From: a virus
Virus record (IMG/VR): IMGVR_UViG_3300032007_000018
Span: 8,445 to 72,444 of that record
Length of the DNA stretch: 64,000 bases
Reading direction: 5' to 3' (one strand)
The position numbers and the translations under genes are program-made. The notes under the pieces were generated by a model that saw only the letters and a program-made list of their open reading frames with translations, made no database searches and was not told the DNA's origin. The stretch's first letter is position 1; each line of letters opens with the position of its first letter. Of this stretch, positions 15,505 through 59,193 are shown piece after piece.

Positions 15505-15536
15505 ATATATAGAAATAAAAGTATAGGAGAATTGAA

Positions 15537-15875
15537 ATGTCTGCATAGGACTATATTGATCACGAGTGTAAGTATGATGAAGCGCTTAAATATAATGTAG
15601 AATGTTTAGATAAATATGATTTTTGTGAATTTTTAAACGATGGAAGAAGTCTATACGATATATGTAATGCTATTGAAGATAAGTATGATAATGAATTTTT
15701 AGAAAAATTTGGAATCTATGTTTTTGATAGTATAAGCAATGAAGATCTTACTTATTATTTTAAAAGTAGATATAACGTATGGTTTCAAGAATATACAGAT
15801 TGGGTGGTGAGACACGATAATGGAGCTTACGAGAAAACAAGAAGAATAACAAAAAAACAGGACAAAGTAGATTAA
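15537..15875 (+). CDS. Hypothetical 112-aa Cys-rich protein (TAG is codon 4).
   Basis: ATG with RBS TAGGAGA; frame open to TAA. Confidence 0.45.
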
Positions 15876-15927
15876 ATAATTATTTTAATTTTTCATATAT
15901 AATAGAAAAATTAAAGGAGGATTTGCA

Positions 15928-16809
15928 ATGATAGGTTCTGTTTTTGGAAGTTATCTTGTCTTAGAATAGGATAAAGTCTCACATCCATCTGCGGCCGCAC
16001 GCTACTGGAAGATTAAATGTATTTATTGTGGAGAGGAAAAGATTATCCGTTCTGATACATTAAAAAAATGCCCTATTTGTAAATGCCAAAAAGATAAGAT
16101 GATAGGGAATACTTTTGGAGATTTTTTAGTATTAGAAAAATCTAAAGAAAAAGCAAAAGATAATTGTTTAAAATATAAATGCAAATGCATTCATTGTGGC
16201 AATATTGAAGAAGTGGCAAGTAATGTATTAAGATCTCAACGTAAGCACTGTAGCAATTGTCATATTCGTGCATCAACATTAATTGATTTAACCGGTAAAA
16301 CATATGGATTTTTAAAAGTTTTATATAGAGATACTAATCCAATTTATATGGGACACGAAAATGATGCTTATTGGGTGTGCCAATGCTTAAAATGTGGTAG
16401 TATAAAAACAATCAGAGGTTATTCATTACGGAATGGATTAACACAGTCATGTGGCTGTATTAAAAGTTTTGGTGAAGAACAAATCGCCACAATATTAACA
16501 AATAATAATATTCTATTTTAGCGGGAATATATATTTAATGATTGTTATTTAACTAATAAAAAAAATAAATTACGATTTGATTTTGCTATTTTTAATACTG
16601 ATGGCACTCTATCTCATCTTGTTGAATACGATGGTAAACAACATTTTGAAGAAAATATACGAAATAGCGGCTGGAATACAAAAGATAATTATTAGCAAAC
16701 CCATTTACGAGACGAGTATAAAAATAATTATTGCCAATCTCATCATATTAAGTTAATTCGTATAAGATATAATGAAGAAATAACCTTATAGAAAATATTA
16801 GGAGAATGA
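15928..16809 (+). CDS. Putative freestanding homing endonuclease, paralogous to 4595..5521: three Zn-ribbon modules (YWKIKCIYCG, KCKCIHCGN, YWVCQCLKCGS) plus a DUF559/Vsr-like nuclease domain. 3 in-frame TAGs.
   Basis: ATG 15928 (RBS AAAGGAGG) is in-frame with track ORF 16099..16521 and continues past TAG to TGA 16809. C-terminal FDFAIFNTDGTLSHLVEYDGKQHF. Confidence 0.6.
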
Positions 16810-16814
16810 AAAAA

Positions 16815-18024
16815 ATGGAATTAAGTAGAAAACAAGAGGAGGGACTGCAAACTGTGTTAGCCAGATATAAAGCGGGTGAAAAATATACCGTAATATCTGG
16901 CTACGCTTAAAGCAGGAAGCGGAAAATCGACGTTAATAAAATTCATTATCGCTGCGATGAAGCTCTACCCAAACGAAGTAAGATATATCGCTTATACGGG
17001 TAAGGCCGCGAATGTATTAAAAAATAAGGGATGCGAAGGTGCTACTACCGCGCACAAACTCATTTATCACGCAAAGCTAATGCCCAATGGAAAATATATT
17101 TTTACTCCAAAAAAAATAACCGAAATGGAAAGAGAAATTAAGGTTGTAGTTGTAGACGAGGTTTCGATGTTGCCAAAATCTATGTGGGATTTACTATGTC
17201 AGTATAATTTCTACATCATAGCCTGCGGCGACCCGGAACAGCTACCTCCTGTACCAGATGGTAAGGAAGATCCAGACAATCACGTTTTGGATAATCCTCA
17301 CATCTTCCTTGACGAGATTATGCGTCAGGCCCAAGAGAGTGAGATTATTCGTCTCTCAATGCACATAAGAGAAGGTAAGCCTTTATTTACCTTTCCTGTG
17401 TAGAATGAGCAGGTTATGATTTTTGATAAGAAAGACGTAACAGATTCAATGCTACTCTGGGCTGATCAAGTATTGTGCGCGACCAATAGAAATAAGGTTG
17501 CTCTCAATCAGCGTATGCGGCAAGCCTATAACTTCCTACCCGAAACTCAAGTCGGAGACAAAATTATCAATGTTCATAATGAATGGGACATATGCTCAAA
17601 TCTTGAGAACCCATTAACTAATGGGGTAATTGGTAAGATATTACAAATGGAAATGCAAGAATGGGAATATCCTTATTGGTTGCGCAATGAAGTACTGCGT
17701 GTTCCTATCCTTGTCGCTACTATCTCCGGAGACGAAGAGGGTGAAGCATTTCAGATGCTGCCTTTTGACTATAATGAGATAGCAACAGGACAGCCGAGTT
17801 TGAGCGGCAAAGAAGAGTATACAATTATGAAGCGACTGGAAATGGCTGTTCCGCTTCATGCAAATTATGGTTATGCCATTACCGTATGGAAAGCGCAAGG
17901 TAGCGAGTGGGGTAAGGTTTTACTCTTCCAGGAACCTGGCTGGCCGAAGCAGCCAGACGATCGCCGCAGATATATGTATACCGGCATAACAAGAGCAGTA
18001 GATAAATTAGTGGTGGTGTCATAA
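16815..18024 (+). CDS. Dda/RecD-like SF1 DNA helicase. The N-terminal 31 aa are in frame 3 (ATG 16815) and the rest in frame 1 from ~16909 (Walker A AGSGKST), implying a +1 frameshift at GCT-TAA-A, or an assembly error. There is also a TAG at 17401.
   Basis: Motifs VVVDEVSM (II), GDPEQLPPV (III), ITVWKAQGSEWG and TGITRA (V/VI). Track ORFs 16957..17403 and 17416..18024 are in the same frame, separated by TAG. Confidence 0.55.
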
Positions 18025-18680
18025 TGGGACAATATAGTAATAAAGGATTATATAACTCTTACAGAAAAAACAACAAAGAAAGAGCTGAACTTGACTACTA
18101 TGCAACTCCAACGGCAGAAGTTGAGAATATTCTTAATGCTCTTAACTATAATTTTAACGGTCTTAGTATTCTTGAGCCTTGCGTTGGAGGCGGCCATATG
18201 CTTGATGGTATCATTAATTATTGCGATCAACGTGGCCAGACTCCTAAGTCTATTATCGGGACCGAATGGGCAGACAGGGGATATCGCAACGACAGATGTA
18301 ATCTCACTTATGGCCTTGATTTTCTTGATGATAATTACCCTGCTAGCAAAGCAGACGTAATTGTTATGAATCCTCCTTATGCAACTCTTGAGCCTTTCCT
18401 TATTCGCGCTCTTGAGATTGCGCAACGAGACTTAATTGTGCTTTGCCGCACACAGGTTCTCGAAGGAGCAAGCAGATATAAAAATATCTTTTCTACTAAT
18501 CCTCCAGATCAAATCTATCAGTATATTGATAGAATTCAGTGCTGGAAGAATGGTAAGAAACCTACTGGTTCTTCTGCGCAAGCCTATTGCTGGCTAGTGT
18601 GGAAAGGCATGAATATCACTGGGACGTTAATTCGCCCGAATATAAAACCCCAGCTCAACTGGATTCACCGAGCAGATTGA
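18024..18680 (+). CDS. DNA N6-adenine (or N4-cytosine) methyltransferase.
   Basis: Motif I ILEPCVGGGH and motif IV NPPY. Confidence 0.65.
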   Translation: MGQYSNKGLYNSYRKNNKERAELDYYATPTAEVENILNALNYNFNGLSILEPCVGGGHMLDGIINYCDQRGQTPKSIIGTEWADRGYRNDRCNLTYGLDFLDDNYPASKADVIVMNPPYATLEPFLIRALEIAQRDLIVLCRTQVLEGASRYKNIFSTNPPDQIYQYIDRIQCWKNGKKPTGSSAQAYCWLVWKGMNITGTLIRPNIKPQLNWIHRAD

Positions 18681-18696
18681 TTTATATAAAAATTTA

Positions 18697-18705
18697 TGTT
18701 ATAAT
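18697..18705 (+). promoter_or_regulatory. Extended -10 promoter TGTTATAAT upstream of the polymerase gene.
   Basis: Motif recurrence. Confidence 0.4.
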
Positions 18706-18736
18706 ATAAGTACAATAATAAAAGCGGAGGTTTTTT

Positions 18737-21700
18737 ATGAAGTCATACTTCGGAGTTCATAATCATACAGCCGTGGGTTCAAATATTAGACTTATTGACT
18801 CAATCAACAAACCAGCAGACCTCATCGACAAAGCGATCGAGTTAGGACTCTCTGGGATTGCGATAACAGATCATGAATGTCTTTCGGCTCACGTAGAGGC
18901 TGAAAAGCATATGGCAGAAATAAAGGAAGCGCATCCAGATTTTAAACTGGCATTCGGCAATGAGATTTATCTTGTTGATGAAAGAAAACCAGGTCAAAAA
19001 TATTATCACTTTATTTTAATTGCCAAGGATGCACTAGGTCATCGCGCACTTCGAGAACTAAGTTCAAGGGCGTGGATGAATTCGTATGTGGACCGCCGTA
19101 TGGAGCGTGTTCCAACTACGAAAGAGGAGTTAAAAGAGATTGTAAATAAGTTCAAAGGTCATTTGATTGCAACAACCGCTTGTATTGGTGGAGAATTGCC
19201 AACTCTCGCATTGACTTATACAAAAGCAAGAATGGTAAATGATAACAACAATGCAATGTATTATTACAAAGAAATTGACAAGTTTTTGAACTATTGTTTG
19301 GAACTATTTGGAGAGGATTTTTACATTGAGTGCGCGCCGGGAACGGCCCCAGATCAGGTGGCGGCAAATAAAGCCTGTCGGAAAATTTCAGATTTTTATG
19401 GTATTAAAATGGTAGTCGGGACAGATGCGCACTACCTAGATAAAGACGCAAGGGCCGTTCATAAGGCTTACTTAAACTCCAAGGAAGGAGACCGCGAAGT
19501 CGATGCGTTTTATGAGTATACCTACCTTATGGATTACGATGAAGTTACGAATCTATTAGGTTTTACTTTTGATGGAGATATGGATTATGCATATCAAGTA
19601 GCGGATAACACTCTAGCAATACAAGAGAAGATACAAATGTATTCTCTCTTTCACAAACAAGATATCCCATCAGTAGAAGTACAGAATTATCCAAAGTCCG
19701 CGTGGTGGGGAGTAAATAACGACTACGCGAATGAAATGGAAAAGTACCCAACCTTAAAGAAACTATTCACATCTGACGATATTCAAGATAGATATTGGGT
19801 AAATCAATGTTGGGATAAACTCAACGAGATTGGCCATGGTTGGGATAATTATAATGAAACTGGCGATGATCGTTATCTCGTGGAGCTTGAAGAAGAGGCG
19901 CGAGTAAAGAGTGTCATTAGTGAAAAGTTAGAAACAAATATGTTCCGTTATCCAAATACACTTCAACACTATATTGATTTGATTTGGGATTGCGGTTCGA
20001 TGGTAGGTGCCGGACGAGGTTCATCTTGTGCGGCGTTAAACCATTATTTGATGGGTATAACGCAGTTAGACCCGATTGAATGGGAGCTTCCATTCTTCCG
20101 TTATTTGAACGACGAGCGTGTTGAATTAGGCGATATTGATATTGATATCTGTCCTTCCAAGTGCGGTCTCGTCTTACAGAAGATTGCGGCTGAGCGCAGT
20201 CAGATGTTTAATGATGATGTTCCGGAATGGGCGAAGAAGTTGTTTGGTTGTACGAGAATCTCAACTTTTGGAACTGAAGGAACAAAGTCGGCAGTTTTGA
20301 CAGCGTGCCGTGGTTATCGGTCTGAGGATTATCCCGATGGAATTGATGTTGATGAAGCGCAGTATATGGCATCATTGATTCCTCAAGAGCGTGGATTCTT
20401 GTGGCCGATTAAAGATGTTATCGAAGGAAATGAAGAGAAGAATCGTAAGCCAGTAGCAAGTTTCATTCGAGAAATCAATAATTATCCGGGACTTCTGGAT
20501 ATTGTTAAAGGTATTGAAGGCTTGGTAAGTAAGCGTAGTTCTCACGCATCAGGTATCGTTCTTTTCGATGGTGACCCATTCGAGCATAGCGCTTTTATGA
20601 AAACTCCAAAAGGAGAAATCATTACTCAATATAATCTGCACGATGCAGAGTATATGGGATTAACAAAATATGACTTCCTGGTAACAGAAGTTCAAGATAA
20701 AATCGTTCAAACAATCCAGTTCCTCCAGGAGGATGGAGAGATTGAAAAAGATTTAAGTCTGCGCGAAGTCTATAATAAGTATCTGCATCCAAGCGTATTG
20801 CCGATTAAAACAGATACAAAAATGTGGGATGCATTGGGCGATGTATCGGTTATCAATACATTCCAATTCGATAGCGCAGAGGGATCAAAGGCAGCAAAAC
20901 AATTAAAACCACGAACTATCTTAGAGATGGCCGATGCCAATGGTCTGATTCGTCTGATGGGCGAGGAAGGGCAGGAGCGCCCGATTGATAAGTATTATCG
21001 TTATAAAAATGATATTAGTTTGTGGTACGAAGAGATGGATAACTTTGGTTTGACAAAAGCAGAACAGAAAACTTTGGAGCCATATTTTAAACCATCTTAT
21101 GGTGTTCCACCTAGCCAAGAGCAGTTAATGAAGATGCTGATGGATCCAAACATCTGCGGATTCACCTTGGGAGAGGCGAACAACGCACGTAAAATCGTCG
21201 GTAAGAAGCAGATGAAAAAGATTCCAGCACTTCGTGAGCAGGTTCTCAAGCAGGCGAAGAGTCCGCGTCTCGGCCAGTATATTTGGAGATTTGGGGCTGG
21301 GCCGCAGATGGGTTATTCATTCTCTGTTATTCACGCACTCGCATATAGCTTCGTCGGGGCGCAAACATTGTATCTCGGCACTCATTGGAATCCAATCTAT
21401 TGGGATACGGCATGTCTGGTGGTTAATAGTGGTTCTCTTGAGGACGCGGTTGATGAAGACGGTGAAGCGCTCTATGATGAAGAGATAGAGGAAGAAGCTA
21501 CCGATGATAAGAAAAAGAAAGCAACAAGTACTGACTATGGTAAAGTCGCAAAAGCATTGAATGATATTATCAATGCCGGTATTAACGTCAGTCTTGTGAA
21601 TATAAACGGTTCTGACTTTGGTTTTAAGCCAGACGTAAAGAACAATCGAATCCTCTTTGGTATGAAAGCATTACTGAATGTAAATGATGATTTGGTAAAA

Positions 21701-22747
21701 CGAATCATTGATAATCGTCCATATAGAGGAATTAAAGATTTTTATAAAAGAATCAAGCCAACTAAGCAAGCAATGGTCTCTCTTATAAAGGCTGGCGCCT
21801 TTGATGATATGATGGAGAGAAAAATTGCGATGGCATGGTATATCTGGGAAACTTGCGATAAAAAATCAAGATTGACTTTGCAGAATTTCCCAACGTTAGT
21901 AAAACAAGATATGGTTCCGAAGGATACGCCAGAAAGAGAGGCCGCGTATTCAATATATGAATTTAATCGGTATCTTAAAGCCATATGTAAAACTAAAGAG
22001 TATCCTAATGATTATCGCCTTGATCCTCGCGCAATTGAATTTCTTTATAAGATGGGATTTGAAAATCTGATAGTAGATGATAATCTTTTGGATATGAAGA
22101 AATGGGATAAGAAGTACCAAGGATTCATGGACGTATTCAGAGAGTGGCTGCGCGCAGACGGCGATGAGATTCTAAATGAACTTAATACGAGAATTTTCAA
22201 AGCCGACTGGGACAAGTATGCAGGCGACGCAAATTATTCTGCATGGGAAATGGAAGTTCTTTGTTTCTATAAGCATGAACACGAACTCGCGCATGTTGAT
22301 ATGAAGAAATATGGTTTGAGTAATTTCAGCGAGTTGCCAGAAGATCCAGAAGTAGAGAGAACATTCTACAAGGCAAATAAAGCAATCAATATATTCAAAC
22401 TGAGCCGTATTGCAGGAACCTGTATAGCAAAAAATAAAGTAAAGAGCGTAGTTACAATTCTAACAACTGATGGCGTTGTTAATGTCAAGTTCAGAAAAGA
22501 ATATTTCGCATTGTTCGATAAGAGAATTTCTGAGCGTGGCGAAGATGGTGTAAAGCACGTCGTTGAAAAGAGTTGGTTTGATAGGGGAAGTATGATTATG
22601 GTACAGGGTATCCGGTCTGGTGATACATTCATCACAAAGAAGTATGCATCAACAGTTGGGCATCAATTGTATCATATTATTGAAGTAACTCCAAGTGGAG
22701 ATTTGATTCTTCAGAACGAAAGATATAAAGGGGAGGGTGGAGAATGA
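18737..22747 (+). CDS. dnaE: DNA polymerase III alpha subunit (DnaE-type, N-terminal PHP domain), 1336 aa, with no in-frame TAG.
   Basis: N-terminal PHP motifs (HNHT...ITDHE) and length. An uninterrupted 4-kb ORF with RBS AAGCGGAGG. Confidence 0.75.
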   Translation: MKSYFGVHNHTAVGSNIRLIDSINKPADLIDKAIELGLSGIAITDHECLSAHVEAEKHMAEIKEAHPDFKLAFGNEIYLVDERKPGQKYYHFILIAKDALGHRALRELSSRAWMNSYVDRRMERVPTTKEELKEIVNKFKGHLIATTACIGGELPTLALTYTKARMVNDNNNAMYYYKEIDKFLNYCLELFGEDFYIECAPGTAPDQVAANKACRKISDFYGIKMVVGTDAHYLDKDARAVHKAYLNSKEGDREVDAFYEYTYLMDYDEVTNLLGFTFDGDMDYAYQVADNTLAIQEKIQMYSLFHKQDIPSVEVQNYPKSAWWGVNNDYANEMEKYPTLKKLFTSDDIQDRYWVNQCWDKLNEIGHGWDNYNETGDDRYLVELEEEARVKSVISEKLETNMFRYPNTLQHYIDLIWDCGSMVGAGRGSSCAALNHYLMGITQLDPIEWELPFFRYLNDERVELGDIDIDICPSKCGLVLQKIAAERSQMFNDDVPEWAKKLFGCTRISTFGTEGTKSAVLTACRGYRSEDYPDGIDVDEAQYMASLIPQERGFLWPIKDVIEGNEEKNRKPVASFIREINNYPGLLDIVKGIEGLVSKRSSHASGIVLFDGDPFEHSAFMKTPKGEIITQYNLHDAEYMGLTKYDFLVTEVQDKIVQTIQFLQEDGEIEKDLSLREVYNKYLHPSVLPIKTDTKMWDALGDVSVINTFQFDSAEGSKAAKQLKPRTILEMADANGLIRLMGEEGQERPIDKYYRYKNDISLWYEEMDNFGLTKAEQKTLEPYFKPSYGVPPSQEQLMKMLMDPNICGFTLGEANNARKIVGKKQMKKIPALREQVLKQAKSPRLGQYIWRFGAGPQMGYSFSVIHALAYSFVGAQTLYLGTHWNPIYWDTACLVVNSGSLEDAVDEDGEALYDEEIEEEATDDKKKKATSTDYGKVAKALNDIINAGINVSLVNINGSDFGFKPDVKNNRILFGMKALLNVNDDLVKRIIDNRPYRGIKDFYKRIKPTKQAMVSLIKAGAFDDMMERKIAMAWYIWETCDKKSRLTLQNFPTLVKQDMVPKDTPEREAAYSIYEFNRYLKAICKTKEYPNDYRLDPRAIEFLYKMGFENLIVDDNLLDMKKWDKKYQGFMDVFREWLRADGDEILNELNTRIFKADWDKYAGDANYSAWEMEVLCFYKHEHELAHVDMKKYGLSNFSELPEDPEVERTFYKANKAINIFKLSRIAGTCIAKNKVKSVVTILTTDGVVNVKFRKEYFALFDKRISERGEDGVKHVVEKSWFDRGSMIMVQGIRSGDTFITKKYASTVGHQLYHIIEVTPSGDLILQNERYKGEGGE

Positions 22748-39509: not shown

Positions 39510-42500
39510 TTAAAGTGGTAAAAACTGCTGATTTGGGAAATACTCGAGGTTAATACTGATTAACTCAAGGAAGTTATCCCAGTTTGCAATAGCAGGAGAC
39601 TTCCAAACTATAATAGAACCGCTATGATTATTCAATTCACCATCGAGTCCTGTTGCACCACCAAATAGGTTCTCGCCTATGGTAGAAAAGTCTTGAGTAC
39701 AAGGTTCAGCTTCAGTACCAAAAATAATAGTTGTAAGATTTCTTAAACCACCAAAAGCACCTTCATCATAAGTATAACTATGACCTGGAATTGACAGATA
39801 TTTGATCGATTCACAACCACCAAAAACAACTTGACCGATTGTTGTAACCGGCTCTAAGAAATCGTACATAAATGCGCCTTCGGCAGTATCTGTACTCATA
39901 AAGCTAGTGCATCCAGAGAATGCATTATCTCTAATAGTCGTACAAGTATCAGGCATTTCAAAATATACTAGATCAGTATCGCCAGCGAATGCCTCCTAAT
40001 TAATTGCAACAAGCCCACGGCCTTCACGAGCCCAGAAGATATGAGTTATATTATTTTCTTTTCCTCCGGCCTTAGAGAAGCCAGTTCGCGCAATTGACGT
40101 GATGGTTGTTCCGCCAATAGAAGTAGGAATTGTAATCTTGCCTTCAAGTACATAATTAGTGTTCAGAAGAATAGAAGAACCATTTACTATTTGGAAATAC
40201 TTTTCATCAAGAACATCATCGTAGACACTAACGTCTGTATAGATTGCTATAAATGAGCGATTTCTATCTGGTGAAAGAGTAGTTAAATCTACTCTTGATT
40301 GAGTTCTATCATTTGGATCTGCCCAATGAGAGAATTTATATTTTCTATATAACCCAAGTTCACCATTTTCTGTTAAAGCAGAATCTGCAATATCATATGG
40401 CTTAGTTGGAATTACAGAAGGTGTATTAAGACCAGGAGTTGCTTTCCAGTCGGTAGTGATTACACGCACTGGTTTGCCGTCGTCAAAATCAAAAGAAGTT
40501 TTATAAGCGTGAGGTCTAAAAATAGCGTACAAAGTGATAATAGAATTGGTTTCTGGATTAAATGTCATTTCTTCTGCGTAGTCATCAAAATGATTAGTAA
40601 ATGTACCGCCCTCATTATGTGCATCATCATTTGTGTAGGTAAACGAAGAAACAATCTTTGTACCAGCAGTATCAAGAGACCAGCCAATGAAATCATGATA
40701 CTCTCTTTCTGGAATTAAGGTTACATCAATAGTAGGCTGTTCTGTAATAGTAGGATCCAACTTATTGACCTATAATTCTTCTTCTTTACCACTATCATTT
40801 ATTTGTACAAACTTTGAAATAAACGATTCAATAACATTAGCAGCGTAGATATTTAAGTTCGGCCAATATACTTTGTATTTAGAAGTGAATTTATCTTCAG
40901 CGATTTTATGAGCTGCGTCATTGGAAACATAAAGTTCACCTGTAATAGCAGGAACGGAGCATGCGGCGGAAGGATTTTGGAATTGAGTTTCGACGCCTTG
41001 AACTTTTGCAGTTTCCATAGCATCAATAAAATCATCTAACATATTAAGATTGGTAATAATCTTTTCTTGTACTTCACCATTATTTGGATCGGTATTATAA
41101 TTCTCATTATAAGTGTAAATCTTACCATTTAATAAGTTATAATCCCAATCTTCGGTAGTTGAGTAAGAATAAGGCTCAAAAGTGCTGTGGTCGTTAAGAC
41201 GATAATAAGTAATATTTTCATCGTAACGTTCTCCTTCTTCTGCCTGGATATAAGGAGACCAGTTAACATCCTTTAAGGAGATAACTACCTGCTTATTAGT
41301 CTGACTAATAATACTTACTAAATTGGAAAGAATCTTATAAGAGTCATAACCTAATCCACCACCGCTGATTGTAAGAGAAGTAATGTTGCAATCTACACCG
41401 GCACTACCATCGTAGTCGGTAAGGTTCTCAACGTACAAACCTCTATAGGTAGATGGATCGGCATAAATAACCTTATCTTGAGCATCAAGTGTAGCTACAA
41501 CAGGTTTTGAAGTAAGAATTCTTGTTAAATCCTTATTCTCAACGAACTGTAATGTAGAAATGGACTTAGGTAAATGTACTGTGTGTAATGGCGCACCATT
41601 AGCAAAATATACATTCTGTAAGCCAGTATTTAATGCTCTGAATTCCTCTAACTTCTCAGAACCTTGAGTATCAACGGTTCCGCGCAAGGAAGTAATTCCA
41701 GTGAAGATAATCTTCTTTAAGAGGGATTTCTTTGTGGTACTATTTGGACCATCAGCGATAGTGAACTTGCCACCATCACCGGCCTTAAGCAAGTTGTTCT
41801 TATAACCAGGTACGTCGCTGCCGAGAGTTAAATCAAGGAGACGCTTACCAGCAGTTAAAGTAAACTCGCTGAAATAAGAAGTACTTAAGTCGCCAAGAGA
41901 GGAGAGGTAATCAACACCAGGGAGATATACCAACTGCTCATTAGGAGACTCTGGATCTGTCTTATAAGTCTCAATAGTATCAGCGTTAACAGAAGTCCAA
42001 ACGCCATCTCTCTCGTCTGTAGTTGCATTATACTTTACAGGAGCGCCAGGTACTTCATCGGTAAAGAATGTAACGTACTGCTTCAAAAATGGCTTGAGCT
42101 TGAATCCTGGGCGAGAATCGAAGTAGTCAACAGGATAAGTCTTGGAAAGGAATCCATCATACTTTGTATTACCGTTAGCTACTTGTTCGTCAATAGTTGC
42201 TTGTGGAACATCAAGATAGGTATCAGATGTTTGAGTACCACGGTTACCATTTACACGGCCCCAGAATTGACCTTGTTTTACGGCATTAATCTGATAAGAA
42301 CCACCGAGCCACCAAGAGTCAATATAATTCAAACGGTTGCGAAGGAGTAATTCAGTTGTAAGTTTCTTATCTCCTTGGCAAGCATAAGCGTACTCTGGAG
42401 TATCTTCAACTATTGTCTTACCTTCGGTATCAAAGTAACCAGTTTTAGTGGTTGCGAAATATTTATAATATTCATCAAGTCCAATAGCAATAATAGGACG

Positions 42501-45500
42501 AATACCTTTCATTGCATAGGAACCAAATATTTCTGGATTGCACTCATAAGCACCAGTGATTTTTTCGTAGGTGAGGTTGTTAACAACTCTAGAACCATCA
42601 TTGGCGCCACGAAGAGCACGATATTTATTTTTAATATCTTCTTCAAAAGCTGTAAAGAAGTTGTTCCAAAGAACACTACCAGGAGTAGAGAACAATCCGT
42701 CAAGAGTTACGTCAGCATCATAATCCCAGAGGTAAGCACCAGAGTTATTAAGGCCAAGCTAAGTATCAATATCATAGAAGATAGGATACCATACATAATC
42801 TCCTCCAGCCTCACGAGGACCCCAAGATGCAATCATCATATTCTTACCACGAGAGTCGTAGCAGAGAAGAAGTTCAGTGAGGATAAAGTAGATTAAGCAA
42901 TACTCTTTATCTAAATGCTTTGGAAACTCATTGCGGAATTTCTCAATACGATATCCAGCAGTATCTTTAGAGAAGGTAGTATTATAATAGCTAATAGAGT
43001 AGGTATAATATGTAACACCATCTGCGAAGGCGTCAATATTTACTCTCTGGTAAGACTCTCCTACTTTGATATAATACTCTTCATCGCGGTCGAAAGATAC
43101 ACCCTATGCCACTGCATTGTAACCTACTACCGGTTCAGAACTTTCGCCTGCGGCAGCATATGCAGTAGGAGTTTTCCATGTTACTGGAGTAATCTAACCA
43201 TTTGTAGCAGTAGAAGTATCTGTGGAGTCAATCCAGTCAAACAGAACTTCGAGGTTAGCATACTTAGCTCTGATGTATTCACTCTTTTCGGCATCAGTAG
43301 TACCGATTTCCGCAATAATATCTTCATCGCTTGTAATACCATCGTATTTACCATCTGCGCCAATAGCATCAAGCTAATCGCCATATGGAGAATAACGATA
43401 TTCGAAGTGACGAATAACTTCTAAGCGATTTGGATTATCTGGCCATGTAGTACCAAAACGAGTAGCACGTGCGGCCGCATTAGGATATTTCCAAGAAGTC
43501 CAAGTGCCTTGATTATCAGAAAGCTCCCAGCACTCAGCGATATCTTTAATAGTAGGATGATACTGTTCGGTTGTAGTTTCACCAGTGTTTTCATCGGTTA
43601 CTTCTCTTTCCAAGGTAAGATAAGGCTGAGGTGTTTTTAATTCAAATCCGTAATATTCATTAGAACCCTTATCAAGATTCATATTATAACGGCCAATATA
43701 CTCATAAGTTGCTCCTGGGTTAGATTGGTTATAAGAACCATCTGCGTACTTATGGAATGTTAATACAGGAAAACCATAAACAGAAGTTCTATAATTAGAA
43801 CCATCAATACCGAGGTCATCAAGAGGATGCTTGGTGTAAAGAGGATATTGTGGATTACCTAACAAGTTAGCAAAACCAGTGTTATAAGTTCCAGAAGACT
43901 CCATGTAGTCAATCTTCCAAGTGAATTTATTAGTAGCAAGCTCTTCATTATCCATATGGAATGTCTTGGCAATTTTGTGAGATACGCCATTCTTATCATT
44001 GACATAATGATCCTCGGTTAAGCTCTGTCCAGCGAGAGAACCCTTAGTATATACCCAAGTTTTTGCCTTCTTGAACTTGGTCTTGTAGTTACGGCGTGGA
44101 TAGCCCTGTGAAGAAGTACCCTAAACGTCAATATCTACTCCAGTAGCAGCATAGCTAGGACAATGAGTGTAATACTCAAATTCATCTATATCACCATTCT
44201 CAAGAGCTTCGTCAAGAGATGGATTTACAAATTCAACATCAACTTTGCAAGCATCACCCTTGAAGTAAGGTAACTTCTCATTGCGGCTGGCGTTAGTAAT
44301 AGTCCAAATCGCATAAGGCATGGTAAGTGCGCCCGGGTGATTCTCATTATATTCTTTAAGCAAATCGAAAGATAAGCAAGTTGGTGTTCTTGCCTCGGTA
44401 AGCTGGTTTTGGTCATAAAGTGTAATGTTGTGTAAGTCAGAAAGGTAATTATGAATTACTTCTGGCATAGTTAAACCAGTTCTAAATACACGGAATCTGT
44501 AAAGGTCGATATCGCAATATTTAGAGTTGAATAAGAATGGGCTTGTAATACGGAAAGCACCACCCTGGCTTGGAAGTGAATCTGCGCCAGAAAGGATACC
44601 ATTTAAGTAAATGTAAACAAGACCCTCAGACTTAGAAATAACAACAGAAATGTTGATAACTTCATCTTCTTTATAACGAACACTAACGATACCACGAGGA
44701 GAGCGGAAGTAAGCTTCCTGTGAACCAATAACAAGACCTTCGTTATTATTATTCATCCACTTACAAATAACACCCTCTTCAGTCTTATAGGACTTCTGAA
44801 CATCCTCGGCCATTAATGGACTACCATATTGGTCGATGACTAACTCTTTATGGTTTTCATCAATCCAAGACTTCAAAGCAGGCTCTGACGCTTGAGCACC
44901 AAGAGTGCGAGTGTAATAAGTTACTCCCTCTTCAAATTCTGTGATCTGCACTTTATCATAGATATTAACATCTGGGCGTTTTACATAATAATCAATACTT
45001 GAATCAAATTCTGCATTTTCATCAACTTCATTATAACTATCTTCATAGTAATAATAGAGTGGCAAACTTTGAACAAGTGTAGAATACTCTTGAACATTAC
45101 GAATTCTAAATCTCATTTCGATACTGAAATCATTATCGTAATTAAGATAAATAGAATCAACAGGAATGGAAACAGTGGCTCCATTAGTAAGAGAAAGATA
45201 AGTTCCATTGTCAACGCCATTGATTGTTACACCATCATTGCGCCAACCATTGTTCTGCCAGTTAAATCCAGTTAATGTAGCAGGAGTATCGTGGATAGTA
45301 TCTTTCCAAACACTACGTGTACTTTTAATTTCAGAGTTGGAACGACCGGCCGCACTGAAATTTGTGAGCAAAGTTACAGCCTGGCGCAAACCTAAATCAC
45401 GAGAACCTTCTTTAGTTACTGTGATAGGAATATCAACTCTTGTACCGCGGCAGACGATAGCAAATGTCTGCTGGCCTACTGTGTATGCGCTAGTGATATC

Positions 45501-46793
45501 CCATAACCACCAGTCGTCGGCTTTATAGGATTCTTCACTTTCAAGAAGTTTAATACCATCTTTGTATTTATAAACAGTAGCAGGCAAATTATTTCTATCC
45601 TTGACAGGATCATAAACCATGTACTTAATGTAAGAGTTCTCATAGTTTATAATTAATGGATCATATCCACCAAGCCAAATGATAGGTCTATCTTCTCCTT
45701 CGGTTGCCCAAGCACCTTGGAACTCGATAGGGTCAGTATAAACTGTTTCACCATTTACAACTACACTAGCCTTTAACGCAATATTATGAACGCCGTGAGA
45801 CTGACGAGGAATAGCAATAGTGTCCTTTGTTCCAAAGTAGCTAGCAGGAATTATTTTGCTCTTGGAAATCAATTCCTCATTGTCAACATAAACATGAAGA
45901 GTTTCCTCAATACTTGGATCACCATGAGGAATATAATCAAGAGTTAATTCGCCTGCAAGGTTATCAGGCTTTACCAAGGGTAAGAAAGCACTCTCGTTAT
46001 ATTTTGTTAAATATACTTTAACAACTTTAACATTTGGAATAACACGCTTTGGACGCTGTGCTGGCTTCATTGTAGTGTTAGAAGAAGTTACCTTAACAGT
46101 AATAGTTAAGTTCTTACTTTCTGGAAGAGAAGCAGCATCAATCACAAAAGTCTTACCACTCTTATATGGAGGATAAGTGGTTTCATAAGTTTTATCATGC
46201 TCTAAATCATCAATAGTTACTGTAATAATGACATTGGTATCTTTAGTAGATGTAGCAACAAGGGTTAAGTCTTTTTGCTGACCATAAAGGAATGTGGCTC
46301 CATCGTAAAGCTCATTTCCCATTGTCAAAGTCAGATCTACATTAGAACCACTACCGCCGCCACTTCCACCGACACCAGAAACAGCAATTAAATTTAATTC
46401 AACTAAATTATTTTCTGCATCAGAGCCGGTTACTCGAAAGAAACGACCATCAGAGTTAATCACTAAAAGTCCTTTTTGAGGATATTTAGGATTCTCTTCA
46501 GAAGATCCTTCAATGGCAAAAACAGACATGGTATAACGGACATCGTCATCATCTTCTTCATTTATCTTCCAAAGAGTGGTAAGATCTTCGGCATCTTCCT
46601 CGGCGTCAGCCCAAACAAAACTGGAACCGCTACCAGTTCCATTGCCACCAAAGGTATAAGTCTCACCATCTTTGATAAGATAAATAAAACCAGTATCGTA
46701 AGCGAAATAAATATCACCATCGTGGCCGCTAGTCTGCATAACTTTTAAAAGGTCTGCTTCTTTGCCACGAATAGGTCTAAATATCTTTGCCAT
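39510..46793 (-). CDS. Giant tail-fibre/receptor-binding-like protein, 2427 aa. It has a phage-fibre N-terminal motif (RG..DL...GDIYFAYDTGFIYL), central beta-rich regions and a C-terminal BspA-type leucine-rich-repeat domain. At least 8 in-frame TAGs.
   Basis: Five track ORFs (44121..46793, 43374..43955, 40770..42695, 39996..40760, 39510..39956) are all in the same frame. I translated every gap and found it open apart from TAG. ATG 46793 has RBS AAAGGAG. LRR segment NAFSGCTSF...GAFGGLRNLTTIIF. Confidence 0.55.
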
Positions 46794-46939
46794 ATGTTTT
46801 CTCCTTTCATCTCAAAATATACAAAAAAGGGTATGAAGAAAAAGGAAACTTTTTCTCCATACCCTTTTATTTATAGAGTTATTTCCTCTAATAAATTCAA
46901 AAAATTTAAGAGGTTAATTAAAAACATTTGTCCGGAATA

Positions 46940-49814: not shown

Positions 49815-49946
49815 ATTGTCTCTCCTTTCTTTAGATTATCCATTATAATATAAAAAGCAATATAAATAAATTACCCCAATCTGGCCTACTAAAAAAAACC
49901 AGATTGGGGTAAAATATTAAAGCAATGATTTACGATATTCTAATTC

Positions 49947-52871: not shown

Positions 52872-53224
52872 CAGTTATCTCCCTCCCCCTCATATACCAT
52901 ATCAACTATTATCCAGGCACTAGGATTATTTATAATATAATTCAAAGAAGTTTTATTAAATGATAGCCGTGCTATTCCACTTCCATCTGTAAAATCTAAT
53001 TCAAATAATCCCGTGTAATTTATAATGGCTTCTGTGTCAGAATCGTTAATATTAAAACGAGTTCCAGGAGGCGCTGAAATACCAAGTTTTATAATAGGAG
53101 CATATTTATCGAATAATGTTCCATCGCCCCATGCTGCAATTACATCATTAGCCAAACTAAATCTTGGCTCATTATTCATCGCTGATAAATTATAAAAACG
53201 AAATTGCTTAAATTTTTGCGCCAT
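52871..53224 (-). CDS. Hypothetical 117-aa protein.
   Basis: ORF track; RBS AAAGGAGGAA; TGATG overlap with the downstream gene. Confidence 0.55.
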   Translation of the reverse strand: MAQKFKQFRFYNLSAMNNEPRFSLANDVIAAWGDGTLFDKYAPIIKLGISAPPGTRFNINDSDTEAIINYTGLFELDFTDGSGIARLSFNKTSLNYIINNPSAWIIVDMVYEGEGDN

Positions 53225-53244
53225 AATGATTCCTCCTTTTTCTC

Positions 53245-58782: not shown

Positions 58783-58788
58783 TTTAGA

Positions 58789-58983
58789 TTAAGCCTCCTT
58801 TACTTCTGGAGAACTTGCATTCTTTTGCTCGCTTTCTGCGGTCTTAGCAATTTCAGTTACAACTTGCTCGAGAGCGCGGAGAGAATCGGTCATAAGGAAA
58901 CTACTCTCGCCCTTTGTATGAACCTCAAGAAGAGTGTTATAAATACGAGTAAGTTGAGTAAATTGTTCTTGTGTAATAGTCAT
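58789..58983 (-). CDS. Small 64-aa protein with GC3-biased (high-expression) codon usage.
   Basis: Inside track ORF 58789..59028. ATG 58983 has a strong RBS AAAAGGAG 7 nt upstream. Confidence 0.5.
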   Translation of the reverse strand: MTITQEQFTQLTRIYNTLLEVHTKGESSFLMTDSLRALEQVVTEIAKTAESEQKNASSPEVKEA

Positions 58984-59193
58984 AATCAAAAACTCCTTTT
59001 TTTCCATTTTTATATATAAAATACTCAAGCGAATCGAGCATATATACCATATTGATTCTATGCGGAAACATTAACCGTAAGAATTCCACTATTGTAATCT
59101 ATAACACGCGTTGCATTGTTTGGATTAGAATGTCTATCGCCGACTGGAGCGACAGGTCCTAGTTGAAAGCGTTCACAATATACCATAAACTAA

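What the first reader, a model, noticed from the sequence alone, without database searches (positions are those of the whole stretch)
16815..16960. The Dda-like helicase needs a +1 frameshift at GCT-TAA-A to join its start codon to the Walker A motif
ATG 16815 with an RBS opens frame 3 (MELSRKQEEGLQTVLARYKAGEKYTVISGYA-stop). The Walker A motif KAGSGKSTLIKF and the remaining ~370 codons are in frame 1, which has no start codon upstream of the motif. A +1 shift at the TAA would give ...VISGYAKAGSGKST..., resembling the usual G.AGSGKST context. This could be programmed +1 frameshifting at a stop codon (as in RF2 or antizyme), a regulatory device, or a homopolymer assembly error.
Basis: seen in the sequence. 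Interest (0 to 1): 0.5.

Follow-up and report, generated by a model that had tools for sequence, protein, structure and literature searches.

The report
Short ribosomal hop in helicase gene
A phage helicase gene is broken by 7 extra bases inside its ATP-binding motif. More than 100 related phages have the same kind of break at the same spot, which points to ribosomes skipping the extra bases, a rare "translational bypass" that appears to travel with a selfish nuclease gene.

Summary
The frame break is real. ATG 16815 opens a frame that stops at TAA 16908, and the Walker A motif and rest of the helicase continue in another frame with no start codon. It is not an assembly error or a pseudogene. 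I found 103 unique homologous Dda-like helicase contexts interrupted at this exact codon boundary, with 44 different inserts of 5-11 nt. All share one layout: GCY (Ala), then TAA or TGA, then 0-2 (rarely 4-5) spacer bases, then a GCN-like triplet, then GGN. A clade that shares the break shows dN/dS of 0.02-0.10. Proteins 98% identical differ in gap length and frame. Every interrupted allele, and essentially no uninterrupted one, has a 14-18 bp hairpin ending inside the take-off codon. An HNH endonuclease gene abuts 35 of 95 interrupted genes and 0 of 32 uninterrupted ones; the window has a different nuclease in that slot. The best reading is a programmed +7 hop (GCU to GCA) giving the canonical P-loop ...VISGYAGSGKST, rather than the proposed +1 shift. 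It resembles a short-gap version of the phage T4 gene 60/MobA bypass cassette. Bypass itself is inferred, not demonstrated. The in-frame TAG at 17401 is a sense codon in this phage.

The parts
15519..15875 (+). Open frame holding the 3' part of the conserved upstream gene (...WVVRHDNGAYEKTRRITKKQDKVD*). In uninterrupted relatives its end overlaps the helicase start.
   Evidence: Homologous to the 117-aa ORF that directly abuts the helicase in L001/L005.
15820..15849 (+). Remnant of the original helicase start (ATG GAG CTT ACG AGA AAA CAA GAA GAA TAA = MELTRKQEE*), left behind at the left edge of the inserted cassette.
   Evidence: Window 15846-16814 is absent from uninterrupted relatives L001/2/3/5/8/46, and the first ~27 nt of the helicase gene occur on both sides of the insertion.
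15928..16809 (+). Free-standing homing-endonuclease-like gene (293 aa, 4 in-frame TAG = Gln). It has three Zn-ribbon repeats and a PD-(D/E)xK-like C-terminus (FDFAI...VEYDGKQH).
   Evidence: PHROG 559 'HNH endonuclease' 4e-29, PHROG 9084 'homing endonuclease' 4e-24, PHROG 7140 'intron encoded nuclease' 2e-18. Pfam DUF2726 scores 23.6 bits, just under its cut-off. It occupies the slot held by an HNH gene in 35 of 95 other interrupted loci.
16800..16804 (+). Shine-Dalgarno sequence AGGAG, 10 nt before ATG 16815.
16815..16907 (+). Helicase coding segment 1: 31 codons, MELSRKQEEGLQTVLARYKAGEKYTVISGYA, ending with the take-off codon.
   Evidence: Collinear with the N-termini of uninterrupted homologs (MELTKKQE...VISGYA).
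16854..16906 (+). 5' stem-loop. The 5' arm is GUGU-U-AGCCAGAUAU (16854-16868), there is an inner stem GCGG/CCGU, and the 3' arm is AUAUCUGGCU-ACGC (16893-16906). MFE is -24 kcal/mol. The 3' arm covers the E-site codon and the first two bases of the take-off codon.
   Evidence: Present in all interrupted alleles (mean MFE -22.2, z -3.9) and not in uninterrupted ones (-9.9, z -0.06; p = 5e-16). Covariation.
16905..16907 (+). Take-off codon GCT (Ala), in the P site when the stop codon enters the A site.
   Evidence: GCY in all 11 interrupted alleles of the unbiased set.
16908..16910 (+). [quoted passage not shown]
   Evidence: TAA or TGA in 11 of 11 unbiased interrupted alleles, never TAG, which is a sense codon here.
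16908..16914 (+). 7-nt insert (coding gap) TAAAGCA: stop TAA, spacer A (16911) and landing triplet GCA (16912-16914).
   Evidence: Uninterrupted relatives read GCN|GGN with nothing in between. The same insert occurs in an unrelated helicase lineage, L223.
16915..18024 (+). Helicase coding segment 2, from the resume codon GGA: GSGKSTLIKF...VVVS plus stop. It carries Walker A, Walker B (VVVVDE), GDPEQLPP and the UvrD_C_2 motifs.
   Evidence: Pfam AAA_30 1.9e-23 and UvrD_C_2 5.9e-14. Closest solved relatives are RecD2 (3e1s) and Dda (3upu). 87-88% aa identity to L001 and L239.
17401..17403 (+). In-frame TAG read as a sense codon (probably Gln).
   Evidence: Genome-wide TAG reassignment; homologs also carry in-frame TAGs.

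Best explanation
The helicase gene carries a 7-nt non-coding insert (TAAAGCA, 16908-16914) inside its P-loop codons, and ribosomes most likely skip it by a short programmed bypass, or 'stop-hop'. The proposed steps are as follows. Peptidyl-tRNA-Ala sits on GCU (16905-16907) in the P site while UAA occupies the A site. The tRNA unpairs and the mRNA slides forward 7 nt. The tRNA re-pairs with GCA (16912-16914) and decoding resumes at GGA (16915). One 400-aa protein results, with the canonical motif ...VISGYAGSGKST. A stable hairpin (16854-16906) has its 3' arm inside the ribosome at take-off. I infer that its refolding at the mRNA exit pulls the mRNA forward, as proposed for the 5' stem-loop of T4 gene 60. 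The insert, the hairpin-bearing first ~100 nt of the gene and the nuclease gene immediately upstream (15928-16809) behave as one mobile cassette. I infer that the insert breaks the nuclease's target in the highly conserved P-loop DNA, protecting the carrier genome without changing the protein. Shown here: the anatomy, its recurrence, purifying selection, the allele-specific hairpin with covariation, the nuclease linkage and the mosaic 5' flank. Inferred: the bypass itself, its efficiency, the hairpin's 'motor' role and the nuclease-immunity role.
For: (1) Recurrence at one codon boundary. 11 of 53 relatives from an unbiased protein search are interrupted between the Ala codon and GGN, each with TAA or TGA directly after GCY. 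Pattern searches raise this to 103 unique contexts with 44 distinct inserts of 5, 6, 7, 8, 10 or 11 nt. (2) The genes are expressed. Within a clade whose six members all share the 5-nt gap, the downstream frame has dN/dS 0.015-0.098 with dS up to 0.75, and the stop is kept through a TGA/TAA switch. (3) The mechanism is frame-independent. Bodies 98.2% identical carry 8-nt versus 7-nt gaps (L094/L095), and 98.5% identical bodies carry 0 versus 8 nt (L046/L265). (4) The triplet before GGN is always GCN (40), ACN (44), GUN (15) or UCN (4). Beyond the +1 position (where GCC take-off alleles show CCU) it is the first such triplet in the gap, except in TAAC... inserts, which have ACG at +5. Uninterrupted homologs have Ala at that position in 33 of 33 cases (p = 1.6e-11). 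Gaps of 3, 4 or 9 nt were allowed by the search pattern but never found in helicase hits; 3 or 4 nt cannot hold a landing triplet. (5) The hop product aligns without gaps through the P-loop with RecD2, 9kwf_B (GYAGTGKTT) and Dda. (6) The 5' hairpin is specific to interrupted alleles: mean MFE -22.2 (z -3.9) versus -9.9 (z -0.06), p = 5e-16, present in all 11 unbiased interrupted alleles, with 80-87% of cells paired versus 17-52% in slid controls, 0 of 500 shuffles reaching the covariation score, and G.C to A.U and A.U to C.G exchanges at synonymous sites. G.U pairs make the structure strand-specific, so it is an RNA feature. (7) Cassette behaviour. An HNH gene abuts 35 of 95 interrupted helicases and 0 of 32 uninterrupted ones. 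The window has a PD-(D/E)xK-type nuclease there plus a remnant helicase start. Among bodies more than 80% identical, pairs that differ in state share only 69% nt identity in the 5' 72 nt, versus 95% and 89% for same-state pairs. (8) Precedent. The gene 60 bypass forms one mobile element with MobA; the insert blocks self-cleavage, the nuclease is often lost or swapped, and a stop or hungry codon follows take-off (10.1101/2022.08.31.505936). A 5' stem-loop 'motor' and synthetic stop-hops are described in PMC5009743.
Against: There is no protein-level evidence, so the junction peptide is unknown. Short stop-hops in E. coli constructs were inefficient (my recollection of Weiss 1987, as cited in PMC5009743). 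Most of the catalogue came from a pattern that fixed CTGGCTAYGCYTRA, so the stop codon, the take-off codon and 8 nt of the 3' arm are circular for those loci; only the 11 protein-derived loci are unbiased for those features. Many landing triplets are near-cognate (ACY, GUN, UCN) rather than matched. For the 7-nt class alone, a +1 shift is formally possible, and AKAGSGKS still fits [AG]xxxxGK[ST]. About 60% of interrupted loci have no adjacent nuclease, and the window's nuclease family usually sits downstream of uninterrupted helicases, so its link to this site is weaker than that of the HNH. The window's exact allele was not found in any other assembly, and its reads could not be checked.
Confidence: 0.72

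Rival explanations
1. Conventional frameshifting or readthrough at the stop codon: +1 in the window (product ...GYAKAGSGKST), -1 or +2 in the 5- and 8-nt alleles, and stop readthrough in the 6-nt alleles. The gap would be translated and the P-loop lengthened by 2-4 residues.
For: A stop codon in the A site and a 5' stem-loop are both known stimulators of +1 shifting (PMC5009743). AKAGSGKS still matches [AG]xxxxGK[ST]. The translated triplet would encode small residues (A, T, V or S).
Against: It needs three different mechanisms at one homologous site, even between proteins 98% identical. A 5' stem-loop attenuates -1 shifting. tRNA-Ala re-pairs poorly at CUU (+1) or YGC (-1). There is no SD-like element 5' of the site. 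The P-loop length is invariant, and the position is Ala in 33 of 33 uninterrupted homologs and in solved structures. The simplest +1 design, a 4-nt gap, is never seen.
Confidence: 0.12
2. The gene is inactivated. The selfish cassette damaged a dispensable helicase, and the downstream frame is a decaying pseudogene or is not translated.
For: A stop codon interrupts the gene, and selfish nuclease genes can be mildly deleterious. No expression data exist.
Against: dN/dS is 0.015-0.098 across dS up to 0.75 within a clade that shares the gap. The window's downstream frame is intact over 369 codons, with all helicase motifs and 87-88% identity to relatives. An elaborate allele-specific hairpin with covariation would have no reason to be conserved.
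Confidence: 0.05
3. An indel error in the sequencing or assembly of this window.
For: The exact allele (TAAAGCA with this flank) was not recovered from another assembly, and reads are unavailable.
Against: The insert is 7 nt, not a homopolymer slip. It has the same architecture (GCY-TAA-spacer-GCN-GGN, plus hairpin and upstream nuclease) as more than 100 independent contigs from many samples. The identical 7-mer occurs in L223.
Confidence: 0.03
4. Correction at the RNA level: the nascent hairpin makes RNA polymerase skip the 5-11 nt, or the RNA is edited or spliced, so the mRNA is uninterrupted.
For: A nascent-RNA hairpin next to the site is known to stimulate transcriptional slippage in other systems (PMC5009743).
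Against: There is no homopolymer or repeat that would let a 9-bp RNA-DNA hybrid realign 5-11 nt forward. No known mechanism excises 5-11 nt. This model does not explain the conserved stop codon immediately after the Ala codon or the tRNA-Ala-like landing triplet.
Confidence: 0.04
5. A split gene: a 31-aa peptide and a separately initiated large fragment assemble into a working helicase.
For: MobA/MobE insertions do create split proteins that reassemble.
Against: There is no ATG, GTG or TTG between the stop and the Walker A, and no RBS in the 5-nt alleles. The split would separate strand beta-1 from the P-loop by zero residues.
Confidence: 0.02

Closest known systems
Phage T4 gene 60 translational bypass with the MobA homing-endonuclease cassette
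   Same: An insert in a highly conserved motif of a replication enzyme. A take-off codon is followed at once by a stop. A landing triplet sits directly 5' of the resume codon. There is a 5' stem-loop positioned to refold as mRNA leaves the ribosome. The insert is physically linked to a free-standing nuclease gene just upstream, the nuclease is often lost or swapped, and there are signs of co-conversion.
   Different: The gap is 5-11 nt rather than 50. The take-off codon is GCY (Ala), not GGA (Gly). The landing triplet is often only near-cognate. No take-off stem-loop or in-gap SD is evident. The host gene is a Dda/RecD-like helicase, not topoisomerase, and it is not split into two ORFs with added tails. 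The nuclease families differ. There is no sequence homology to the gene 60 element. Bypass has not been shown experimentally.
Synthetic 'stop-hops' in E. coli (Weiss et al. 1987, as reviewed in PMC5009743)
   Same: Peptidyl-tRNA moves from a codon 5' of a stop to a similar codon just 3' of it (+5 or +6), so 9 nt can specify one amino acid. The 6-nt alleles (GCU UAA GCA) have exactly this design.
   Different: Those were engineered and, from memory, inefficient. The review states that no natural occurrences of in-frame stop hopping are known. Here the sites are natural, under selection, and equipped with a dedicated hairpin.
Streptomyces phage phiHau3 terminase candidate bypass (PMC10732093)
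   Same: Short inserts in an essential phage gene (10 nt, and 7 nt in a prophage) that disrupt a conserved junction. Bypass is favoured over frameshifting because extra residues would disrupt a conserved motif. Nearby stem-loops are present.
   Different: It is triggered by a rare UUA sense codon, not a stop, and is proposed as a sensor of host state. Only three genes are known, and no nuclease cassette has been described.
RF2 (prfB) and antizyme +1 frameshifting at a stop codon
   Same: A stop codon in the A site slows decoding and allows P-site tRNA realignment.
   Different: Those use an overlapping +1 re-pairing (CUU U to UUU), and RF2 also needs an SD 3 nt upstream. Neither feature is present here, and the frame relation varies among alleles.
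Mitochondrial 'byp' elements of Magnusiomyces capitatus (as cited in PMC5009743 and PMC10732093)
   Same: Many mobile inserts are translationally bypassed, with matched take-off and landing triplets.
   Different: These are 27-55 nt inserts in a mitochondrial translation system with no associated endonuclease gene (from memory and the cited reviews; not tested here).

Membership tests
Programmed translational bypassing (gene 60 type) | A take-off codon and a matching landing codon, with the landing codon directly 5' of the resume codon | tested here: met
   Window: GCU to GCA, both Ala, followed by GGA. Across 103 contexts the triplet is GCN (40) or a one-mismatch variant, ACN, GUN or UCN (63).
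Programmed translational bypassing (gene 60 type) | [quoted passage not shown] | tested here: met
   TAA at 16908-16910. TAA or TGA in 11 of 11 interrupted alleles of the unbiased set.
Programmed translational bypassing (gene 60 type) | An mRNA structure 5' of or at the take-off site that promotes forward movement | tested here: met
   Hairpin at 16854-16906, -24 kcal/mol. It is specific to interrupted alleles and supported by covariation. Its function is inferred, not tested.
Programmed translational bypassing (gene 60 type) | A nascent-peptide signal in the exit tunnel | tested here: inconclusive
   The peptide ...KIAVARY... is conserved in interrupted alleles, but the RNA hairpin encoded by the same codons explains this conservation.
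Programmed translational bypassing (gene 60 type) | A single polypeptide spanning the gap, shown at the protein level | not testable with these tools
   Needs mass spectrometry or tagged expression.
Programmed translational bypassing (gene 60 type) | Homology to the gene 60/MobA element itself | tested here: not met
   Different host gene (helicase), different gap length and codons, and no similar phage DNA found. It is analogous, not a member of that element family.
Homing-endonuclease mobile cassette (intronless homing with co-conversion) | A free-standing nuclease gene inserted next to the target gene, present or absent between close relatives | tested here: met
   Window 15846-16814 is absent from L001/2/3/5/8/46. 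PHROG nuclease hits. HNH abuts 35 of 95 interrupted and 0 of 32 uninterrupted helicases.
Homing-endonuclease mobile cassette (intronless homing with co-conversion) | Flanking sequence co-converted with the element | tested here: met
   The 5' 72 nt are only 69% identical between close relatives that differ in state, versus 95% and 89% for same-state pairs. A duplicated helicase start lies at 15820-15849.
Homing-endonuclease mobile cassette (intronless homing with co-conversion) | The nuclease cleaves the insert-free allele, and the insert confers immunity | not testable with these tools
   Needs cleavage assays on GCN|GGN versus interrupted targets.
RF2/antizyme-type +1 programmed frameshift | P-site tRNA can re-pair in the overlapping +1 frame | tested here: not met
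   GCU to CUU offers at most a wobble pairing (sequence).
RF2/antizyme-type +1 programmed frameshift | The +1 frame relation is conserved among orthologs | tested here: not met
   Gaps of 5, 6, 7, 8, 10 and 11 nt, also within clusters more than 90% identical.
RF2/antizyme-type +1 programmed frameshift | An SD-like stimulator about 3 nt 5' of the shift site (RF2) | tested here: not met
   The upstream sequence is CUGGCUAC, which is part of the hairpin and not SD-like.
SF1B Dda/RecD-like DNA helicase | Walker A, Walker B and the SF1 helicase motifs in order, with significant family matches | tested here: met
   Pfam AAA_30 1.9e-23, AAA_19 4e-18, UvrD_C_2 5.9e-14. PDB RecD2 2.8e-14 and Dda 5.8e-9. 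Phage hits annotated Dda-like or RecD-like, at most 38% identity.
Stop-codon-reassigned (TAG as sense, code 15-like) phage | Many long ORFs are restored only if TAG is read as sense | tested here: met
   ORFs of 300 aa or more rise from 12 to 23, and the longest from 1341 to 2433 aa. Late-strand ORFs hold 11-29 TAGs each. The amino acid inserted (Gln) is assumed from the literature (PMC9523058), and no suppressor tRNA lies in the window.

The most novel reading that the evidence does not exclude
This is a widespread natural family of short-range (5-11 nt) programmed ribosomal 'stop-hops'. A mobile cassette, made of a homing-endonuclease gene, a roughly 100-nt 5' flank encoding a hairpin 'motor', and a tiny stop-containing gap, repeatedly invades the P-loop codons of Dda-like helicase genes in gut and rumen phages. 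The gap protects the carrier genome from the nuclease, and the ribosome restores the exact protein. If so, it would be a second (with phiHau3, possibly third) independent phage system of programmed bypass. It is also the short-distance counterpart of gene 60 that the field has 'long presumed' to exist, and it comes with more than 40 natural sequence variants.
Probability: 0.65. Interest if true: 0.88.

Novelty: new variant of a known kind. Interest (0 to 1): 0.8.

Why it matters
Programmed translational bypass is among the rarest recoding events. In phages it rests on T4 gene 60 and its homologs, plus one candidate in Streptomyces phages. The main review says shorter natural counterparts have long been presumed and that no natural in-frame stop-hops are known (PMC5009743). 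If confirmed, this family would matter in four ways.

- **A minimal natural system.** It offers a hairpin, a stop codon and a near-cognate landing triplet, with dozens of natural variants in gap length, frame, landing codon and hairpin register. That is a ready-made mutational series for studying how ribosomes let go of and re-find mRNA.
- **A general principle.** It would suggest that selfish nucleases targeting invariant protein motifs carry a translationally silent insert as their immunity device.
- **Annotation.** In the more than 100 interrupted loci found here, the standard-code ORF listing gives a 31-34-aa ORF plus a start-less fragment, so these helicases are likely to be annotated as fragments or pseudogenes.
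- **Discovery.** It gives a search recipe (hairpin plus NNY-stop plus cognate triplet) for finding further cases in metagenomes.

Tried and rejected
- Megablast of window 16000-19000 against the phage collection found no match. tblastn found only cultured relatives at 38% identity or less, so no annotated close genome was available.
- ARAGORN found no tRNA or suppressor tRNA in the window.
- Pfam and NCBIfam do not recognise the small HNH protein. Only PHROGs does. For the window's nuclease, Pfam DUF2726 is just below its cut-off.
- I first expected the window's nuclease family to correlate with the interruption. It does not: its homologs mostly lie downstream of uninterrupted helicases. The correlated nuclease is a different, HNH family.
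- My motif regexes for nucleases were too crude and missed L006's HNH. They were replaced by an HNH-motif regex and by tblastn.
- L048, with a 1-nt insert and no stop, has a second frameshift downstream. I set it aside as a poor assembly or pseudogene.
- Third-base covariation between take-off and landing in the 5-nt class (GCT/ACT versus GCC/ACC) could simply reflect origin by a 2-nt duplication, so I did not use it as evidence.
- SD-like sequences in some gaps (for example TAAGGTAGGT) are absent from the 5-nt class and badly placed to pair with the anti-SD at take-off, so I did not pursue them.
- A scan of the window for other sites of the same design gave 74 loose candidates. Only the helicase site combines the strongest hairpin with two real coding segments; the rest look like out-of-frame noise.
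- Six literature searches found no description of a helicase P-loop bypass.
- I did not run structure prediction, because it would not discriminate between the two candidate products.
Full report
**Observation**

An SD (AGGAG, 16800-16804) precedes ATG 16815. That frame reads MELSRKQEEGLQTVLARYKAGEKYTVISGYA and stops at TAA 16908-16910. A second frame, open from 16894, reads ...KAGSGKSTLIKF... and continues to TAA 18022-18024. It has no ATG, GTG or TTG before ATG 16957, which lies beyond the Walker A motif.

This is not a defect, because the genome reassigns TAG. Reading TAG as sense raises the number of ORFs of 300 aa or more from 12 to 23 and their summed length from 6,962 to 16,094 aa. It also yields ORFs of 2,433 aa (7 TAGs) and 1,657 aa (29 TAGs). 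TAA 16908 is therefore the only real interruption.

The joined protein is an SF1B Dda/RecD-like helicase:
- Pfam AAA_30 1.9e-23 and UvrD_C_2 5.9e-14.
- PDB RecD2 2.8e-14 and Dda 5.8e-9.
- Cultured-phage hits at 38% identity or less, annotated Dda-like or RecD-like.

**The break recurs at the same codon boundary**

A protein-based search of viral contigs returned 61 loci. In 42 loci the gene is continuous and reads ...G[YF]A|G[TS]GKST. In 11 loci it is interrupted exactly between the Ala codon and the GGN codon, by 5, 6, 7 or 8 nt. In each of those 11, TAA or TGA follows directly after a GCY Ala codon. One further locus (L048, 1 nt, no stop) has a second frameshift and was set aside.

A DNA pattern built from these loci found about 61 interrupted helicases among 67 viral-contig hits. 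It found 95 more in metagenome and genome collections, where the other 58 hits were chance matches. After removing duplicates there are 103 unique interrupted contexts with 44 distinct inserts:

| Gap length (nt) | Unique contexts |
|---|---|
| 5 | 39 |
| 6 | 12 |
| 7 | 25 |
| 8 | 26 |
| 10 | 1 |
| 11 | seen once (L143), not in the deduplicated set |

One caution applies. The pattern fixed CTGGCTAYGCYTRA, so for pattern-derived loci the stop codon, the take-off codon and 8 nt upstream are circular. For those features I rely on the 11 protein-derived loci. The gap content, the 5' arm of the hairpin, the neighbouring genes and the downstream frames were not constrained by the pattern.

**Not an error and not a pseudogene**

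Six members of one clade all share the 5-nt gap. Their downstream frames have diverged to dS 0.08-0.75 while dN/dS stays at 0.015-0.098. The stop codon is retained even where it changed from TAA to TGA. The window's own downstream frame is intact, holds all helicase motifs, and is 87-88% identical to L001 and L239 with saturated dS. The body of the protein is therefore translated in the interrupted state.

**Which recoding event**

The inserts share one architecture: GCY, then TRA, then a spacer of 0-2 nt (4-5 nt in the two longest gaps; mostly purines), then a triplet, then GGN. Several results bear on the mechanism.

- The triplet before GGN is GCN in 40 contexts, ACN in 44, GUN in 15 and UCN in 4. 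Every one can pair with a tRNA-Ala anticodon in at least two positions. Beyond the +1 position (where GCC take-off alleles show CCU) it is the first such triplet in the gap, apart from TAAC... inserts, which have an earlier ACG at +5.
- In the 5-nt class the triplet (ACY) reuses the last A of the stop codon. That is the shortest gap that can hold such a triplet.
- Gaps of 3, 4 or 9 nt were allowed by the pattern but never occur in helicase hits.
- If the triplet were translated, 63 of 103 alleles would place Thr, Val or Ser where all 33 uninterrupted homologs have Ala (p = 1.6e-11).
- Proteins that are nearly identical differ in gap length and frame: L094 (8 nt) and L095 (7 nt) at 98.2%, L122 (5 nt) and L243 (8 nt) at 99.4%, and L046 (0 nt) and L265 (8 nt) at 98.5%.

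A frameshift or readthrough account needs +1, -1/+2 and readthrough at one homologous site, and would lengthen the P-loop by 2-4 residues. A hop from GCY to the triplet needs one mechanism and always yields G[YF]AGxGKST. For the window that is a +7 hop from GCU (16905) to GCA (16912), resuming at GGA (16915). The product is ...VISGYAGSGKST, which aligns without gaps with RecD2, 9kwf_B (GYAGTGKTT) and Dda.

**A dedicated RNA element**

The 66 nt upstream of the take-off codon fold far more stably in interrupted alleles (mean MFE -22.2 kcal/mol, z -3.9) than in uninterrupted ones (-9.9, z -0.06). The Mann-Whitney p value is 5e-16. The ranges hardly overlap: -28.8 to -15.6 versus -15.2 to -2.6, apart from one high-GC outlier.

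All 11 unbiased interrupted alleles have the hairpin. In the window, GUGU-U-AGCCAGAUAU (16854-16868) pairs with AUAUCUGGCU-ACGC (16893-16906), at -24 kcal/mol. The 3' arm runs through the E-site codon and into the take-off codon.

Covariation supports the structure:
- On 59 distinct sequences, 80-87% of cells are paired, against 17-52% when partners are slid.
- None of 500 shuffles reaches the observed covariation score.
- Pairs exchange G.C with A.U (41 and 8 sequences, plus 7 G.U) and A.U with C.G (30 and 8; 22 and 13), largely at synonymous codon positions.
- The G.U pairs make the structure strand-specific, so it is an RNA feature rather than a DNA one.

This hairpin explains both the conserved ...AVARY... 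peptide and the fixed CUGGCUAY nucleotides.

With GCY in the P site, the 3' arm lies inside the ribosome. Refolding at the exit channel would pull the mRNA forward. This is the role proposed for the 5' stem-loop of gene 60, and a stem-loop just 5' of a shift site is reported to attenuate -1 but stimulate +1 movement (PMC5009743). The motor role is my inference.

**A mobile cassette**

Relative to L001/2/3/5/8/46, the window has an extra segment at 15846-16814. It begins with a remnant helicase start (15820-15849, MELTRKQEE*). It contains a 293-codon gene (15928-16809) matching PHROGs annotated HNH endonuclease (4e-29), homing endonuclease (4e-24) and intron-encoded nuclease (2e-18), and it has a PD-(D/E)xK-like C-terminus.

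In other interrupted loci the same slot holds a different small HNH endonuclease gene (PHROG 2255, 3.6e-25). That gene abuts 35 of 95 interrupted helicases and 0 of 32 uninterrupted ones. It occurs with 5-, 7-, 8-, 10- and 11-nt gaps (none of the 6-nt alleles), and in L239, the window's closest relative.

At matched body identity, the 5' 72 nt (excluding the 12 nt fixed by the pattern) are more alike among interrupted alleles, including at synonymous positions. Among bodies more than 80% identical, pairs that differ in state share only 69% nt identity there, against 95% and 89% for same-state pairs. The window's 5' segment is closest to interrupted alleles whose bodies are only 42-47% identical. 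So the gap arrives together with about 100 nt of 5' flank, which is the signature of co-conversion.

This matches the gene 60/MobA element. There, the bypass insert blocks self-cleavage, the nuclease is often lost while the bypass stays, and MobA is sometimes replaced by VSR or GIY-YIG nucleases (10.1101/2022.08.31.505936). That the gap protects against the nuclease is inferred here and was not tested. The link is weaker for the window's nuclease family, which usually lies downstream of uninterrupted helicases. Four homologs instead carry an intein of roughly 370 aa in the same P-loop, so this motif is a hotspot for selfish elements.

**Comparison with what is known, and novelty**

The system works like the gene 60 bypass and like the synthetic stop-hops of Weiss et al. 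It is not homologous to the gene 60 element: the gene, codons, gap length and nucleases all differ.

The Atkins 2016 review says that shorter natural counterparts were long presumed and that no natural in-frame stop hops are known. The nearest natural case is the phiHau3 terminase, with 7-10 nt gaps after a rare UUA codon. Six full-text searches found no description of this helicase system. A paper on a similar TAG-recoded phage group does not mention it.

I rate it a new variant of a known kind.

**Verdict**

The +1 reading is replaced by a +7 programmed hop within a nuclease-linked cassette, with confidence about 0.7. The remaining uncertainty is the lack of any protein-level evidence.

Noticed in passing
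window 1-64000, especially the minus-strand genes at 49917-63998: TAG is a sense codon in this genome. ORFs at 59025-63998, 49917-52874, 53245-56205 and 56209-58788 hold 29, 16, 13 and 11 in-frame TAGs. Plus-strand replication genes such as the 1336-aa DNA pol III alpha (18737-22747) have none. No tRNA gene lies in the window.
   Followed up: partly
window 17401-17403: An in-frame TAG inside the helicase gene (PLFTFPV-TAG-NEQVMIF). It is explained by the TAG reassignment.
   Followed up: yes
window 15820-15849: A duplicated remnant of the helicase start (MELTRKQEE*) upstream of the inserted nuclease gene. It overlaps the 3' end of the conserved upstream gene and marks the left edge of the insertion.
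   Followed up: yes
L033, L044, L054 and L056, about 1900-2995 in each locus: In four homologs the same P-loop holds an intein-like insert of roughly 370 aa (318-406 aa of open frame including the helicase N-terminus). It starts with Ala (GSGK|AQP...) and ends ...THN|TTLVKFII. L054 also has a 55%-identical homolog of the window's nuclease about 1.2 kb upstream.
   Followed up: partly
L026-L032, L035, L043, L049, L051 (downstream of the helicase); L071, L089: Homologs of the window's PD-(D/E)xK-type nuclease sit immediately downstream of many uninterrupted helicase genes. This nuclease family seems to home to more than one site around the gene. GIY-YIG genes also occur nearby (L065, L073, L121; upstream in L027).
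   Followed up: partly
L160 and L143: Longer gaps of 10 nt (TAAAAAGGCT) and 11 nt (TAACGAAAGCT) have the same architecture. My pattern capped the gap at 11 nt, so longer ones may exist.
   Followed up: no
L048 3001-4090: This homolog has a single extra C between GCT and GGA (next codon CGG, no stop) and a second frameshift further downstream. It is probably a poor assembly or a pseudogene, though a 'hungry codon' variant was not excluded.
   Followed up: partly
window 18024-18680: The 218-aa ORF just after the helicase contains ...VIVMNPPYATLEPF..., an NPPY motif typical of N6-adenine DNA methyltransferases. Pfam gave no hit.
   Followed up: no
window 39510-46811 (minus strand): A 2433-aa ORF with 7 in-frame TAGs. 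It may be a tape-measure or other giant virion protein, like the ~3150-aa tape-measure protein reported for the TAG-recoded phAss-1 group (PMC10607447).
   Followed up: no
L255, L258, L260, L265, L270, L271, L276 (genome contigs): Interrupted helicase loci occur in MAG bins labelled Clostridia, Clostridium, Bacilli, Mollicutes/Anaeroplasmatales and Endomicrobiaceae from rumen and gut. This hints at Firmicutes-type hosts, although phage contigs are often mis-binned.
   Followed up: no
L052: A high-GC, distant uninterrupted homolog whose upstream region folds at -29 kcal/mol simply because of its composition. It is the one outlier in the hairpin-energy comparison.
   Followed up: partly
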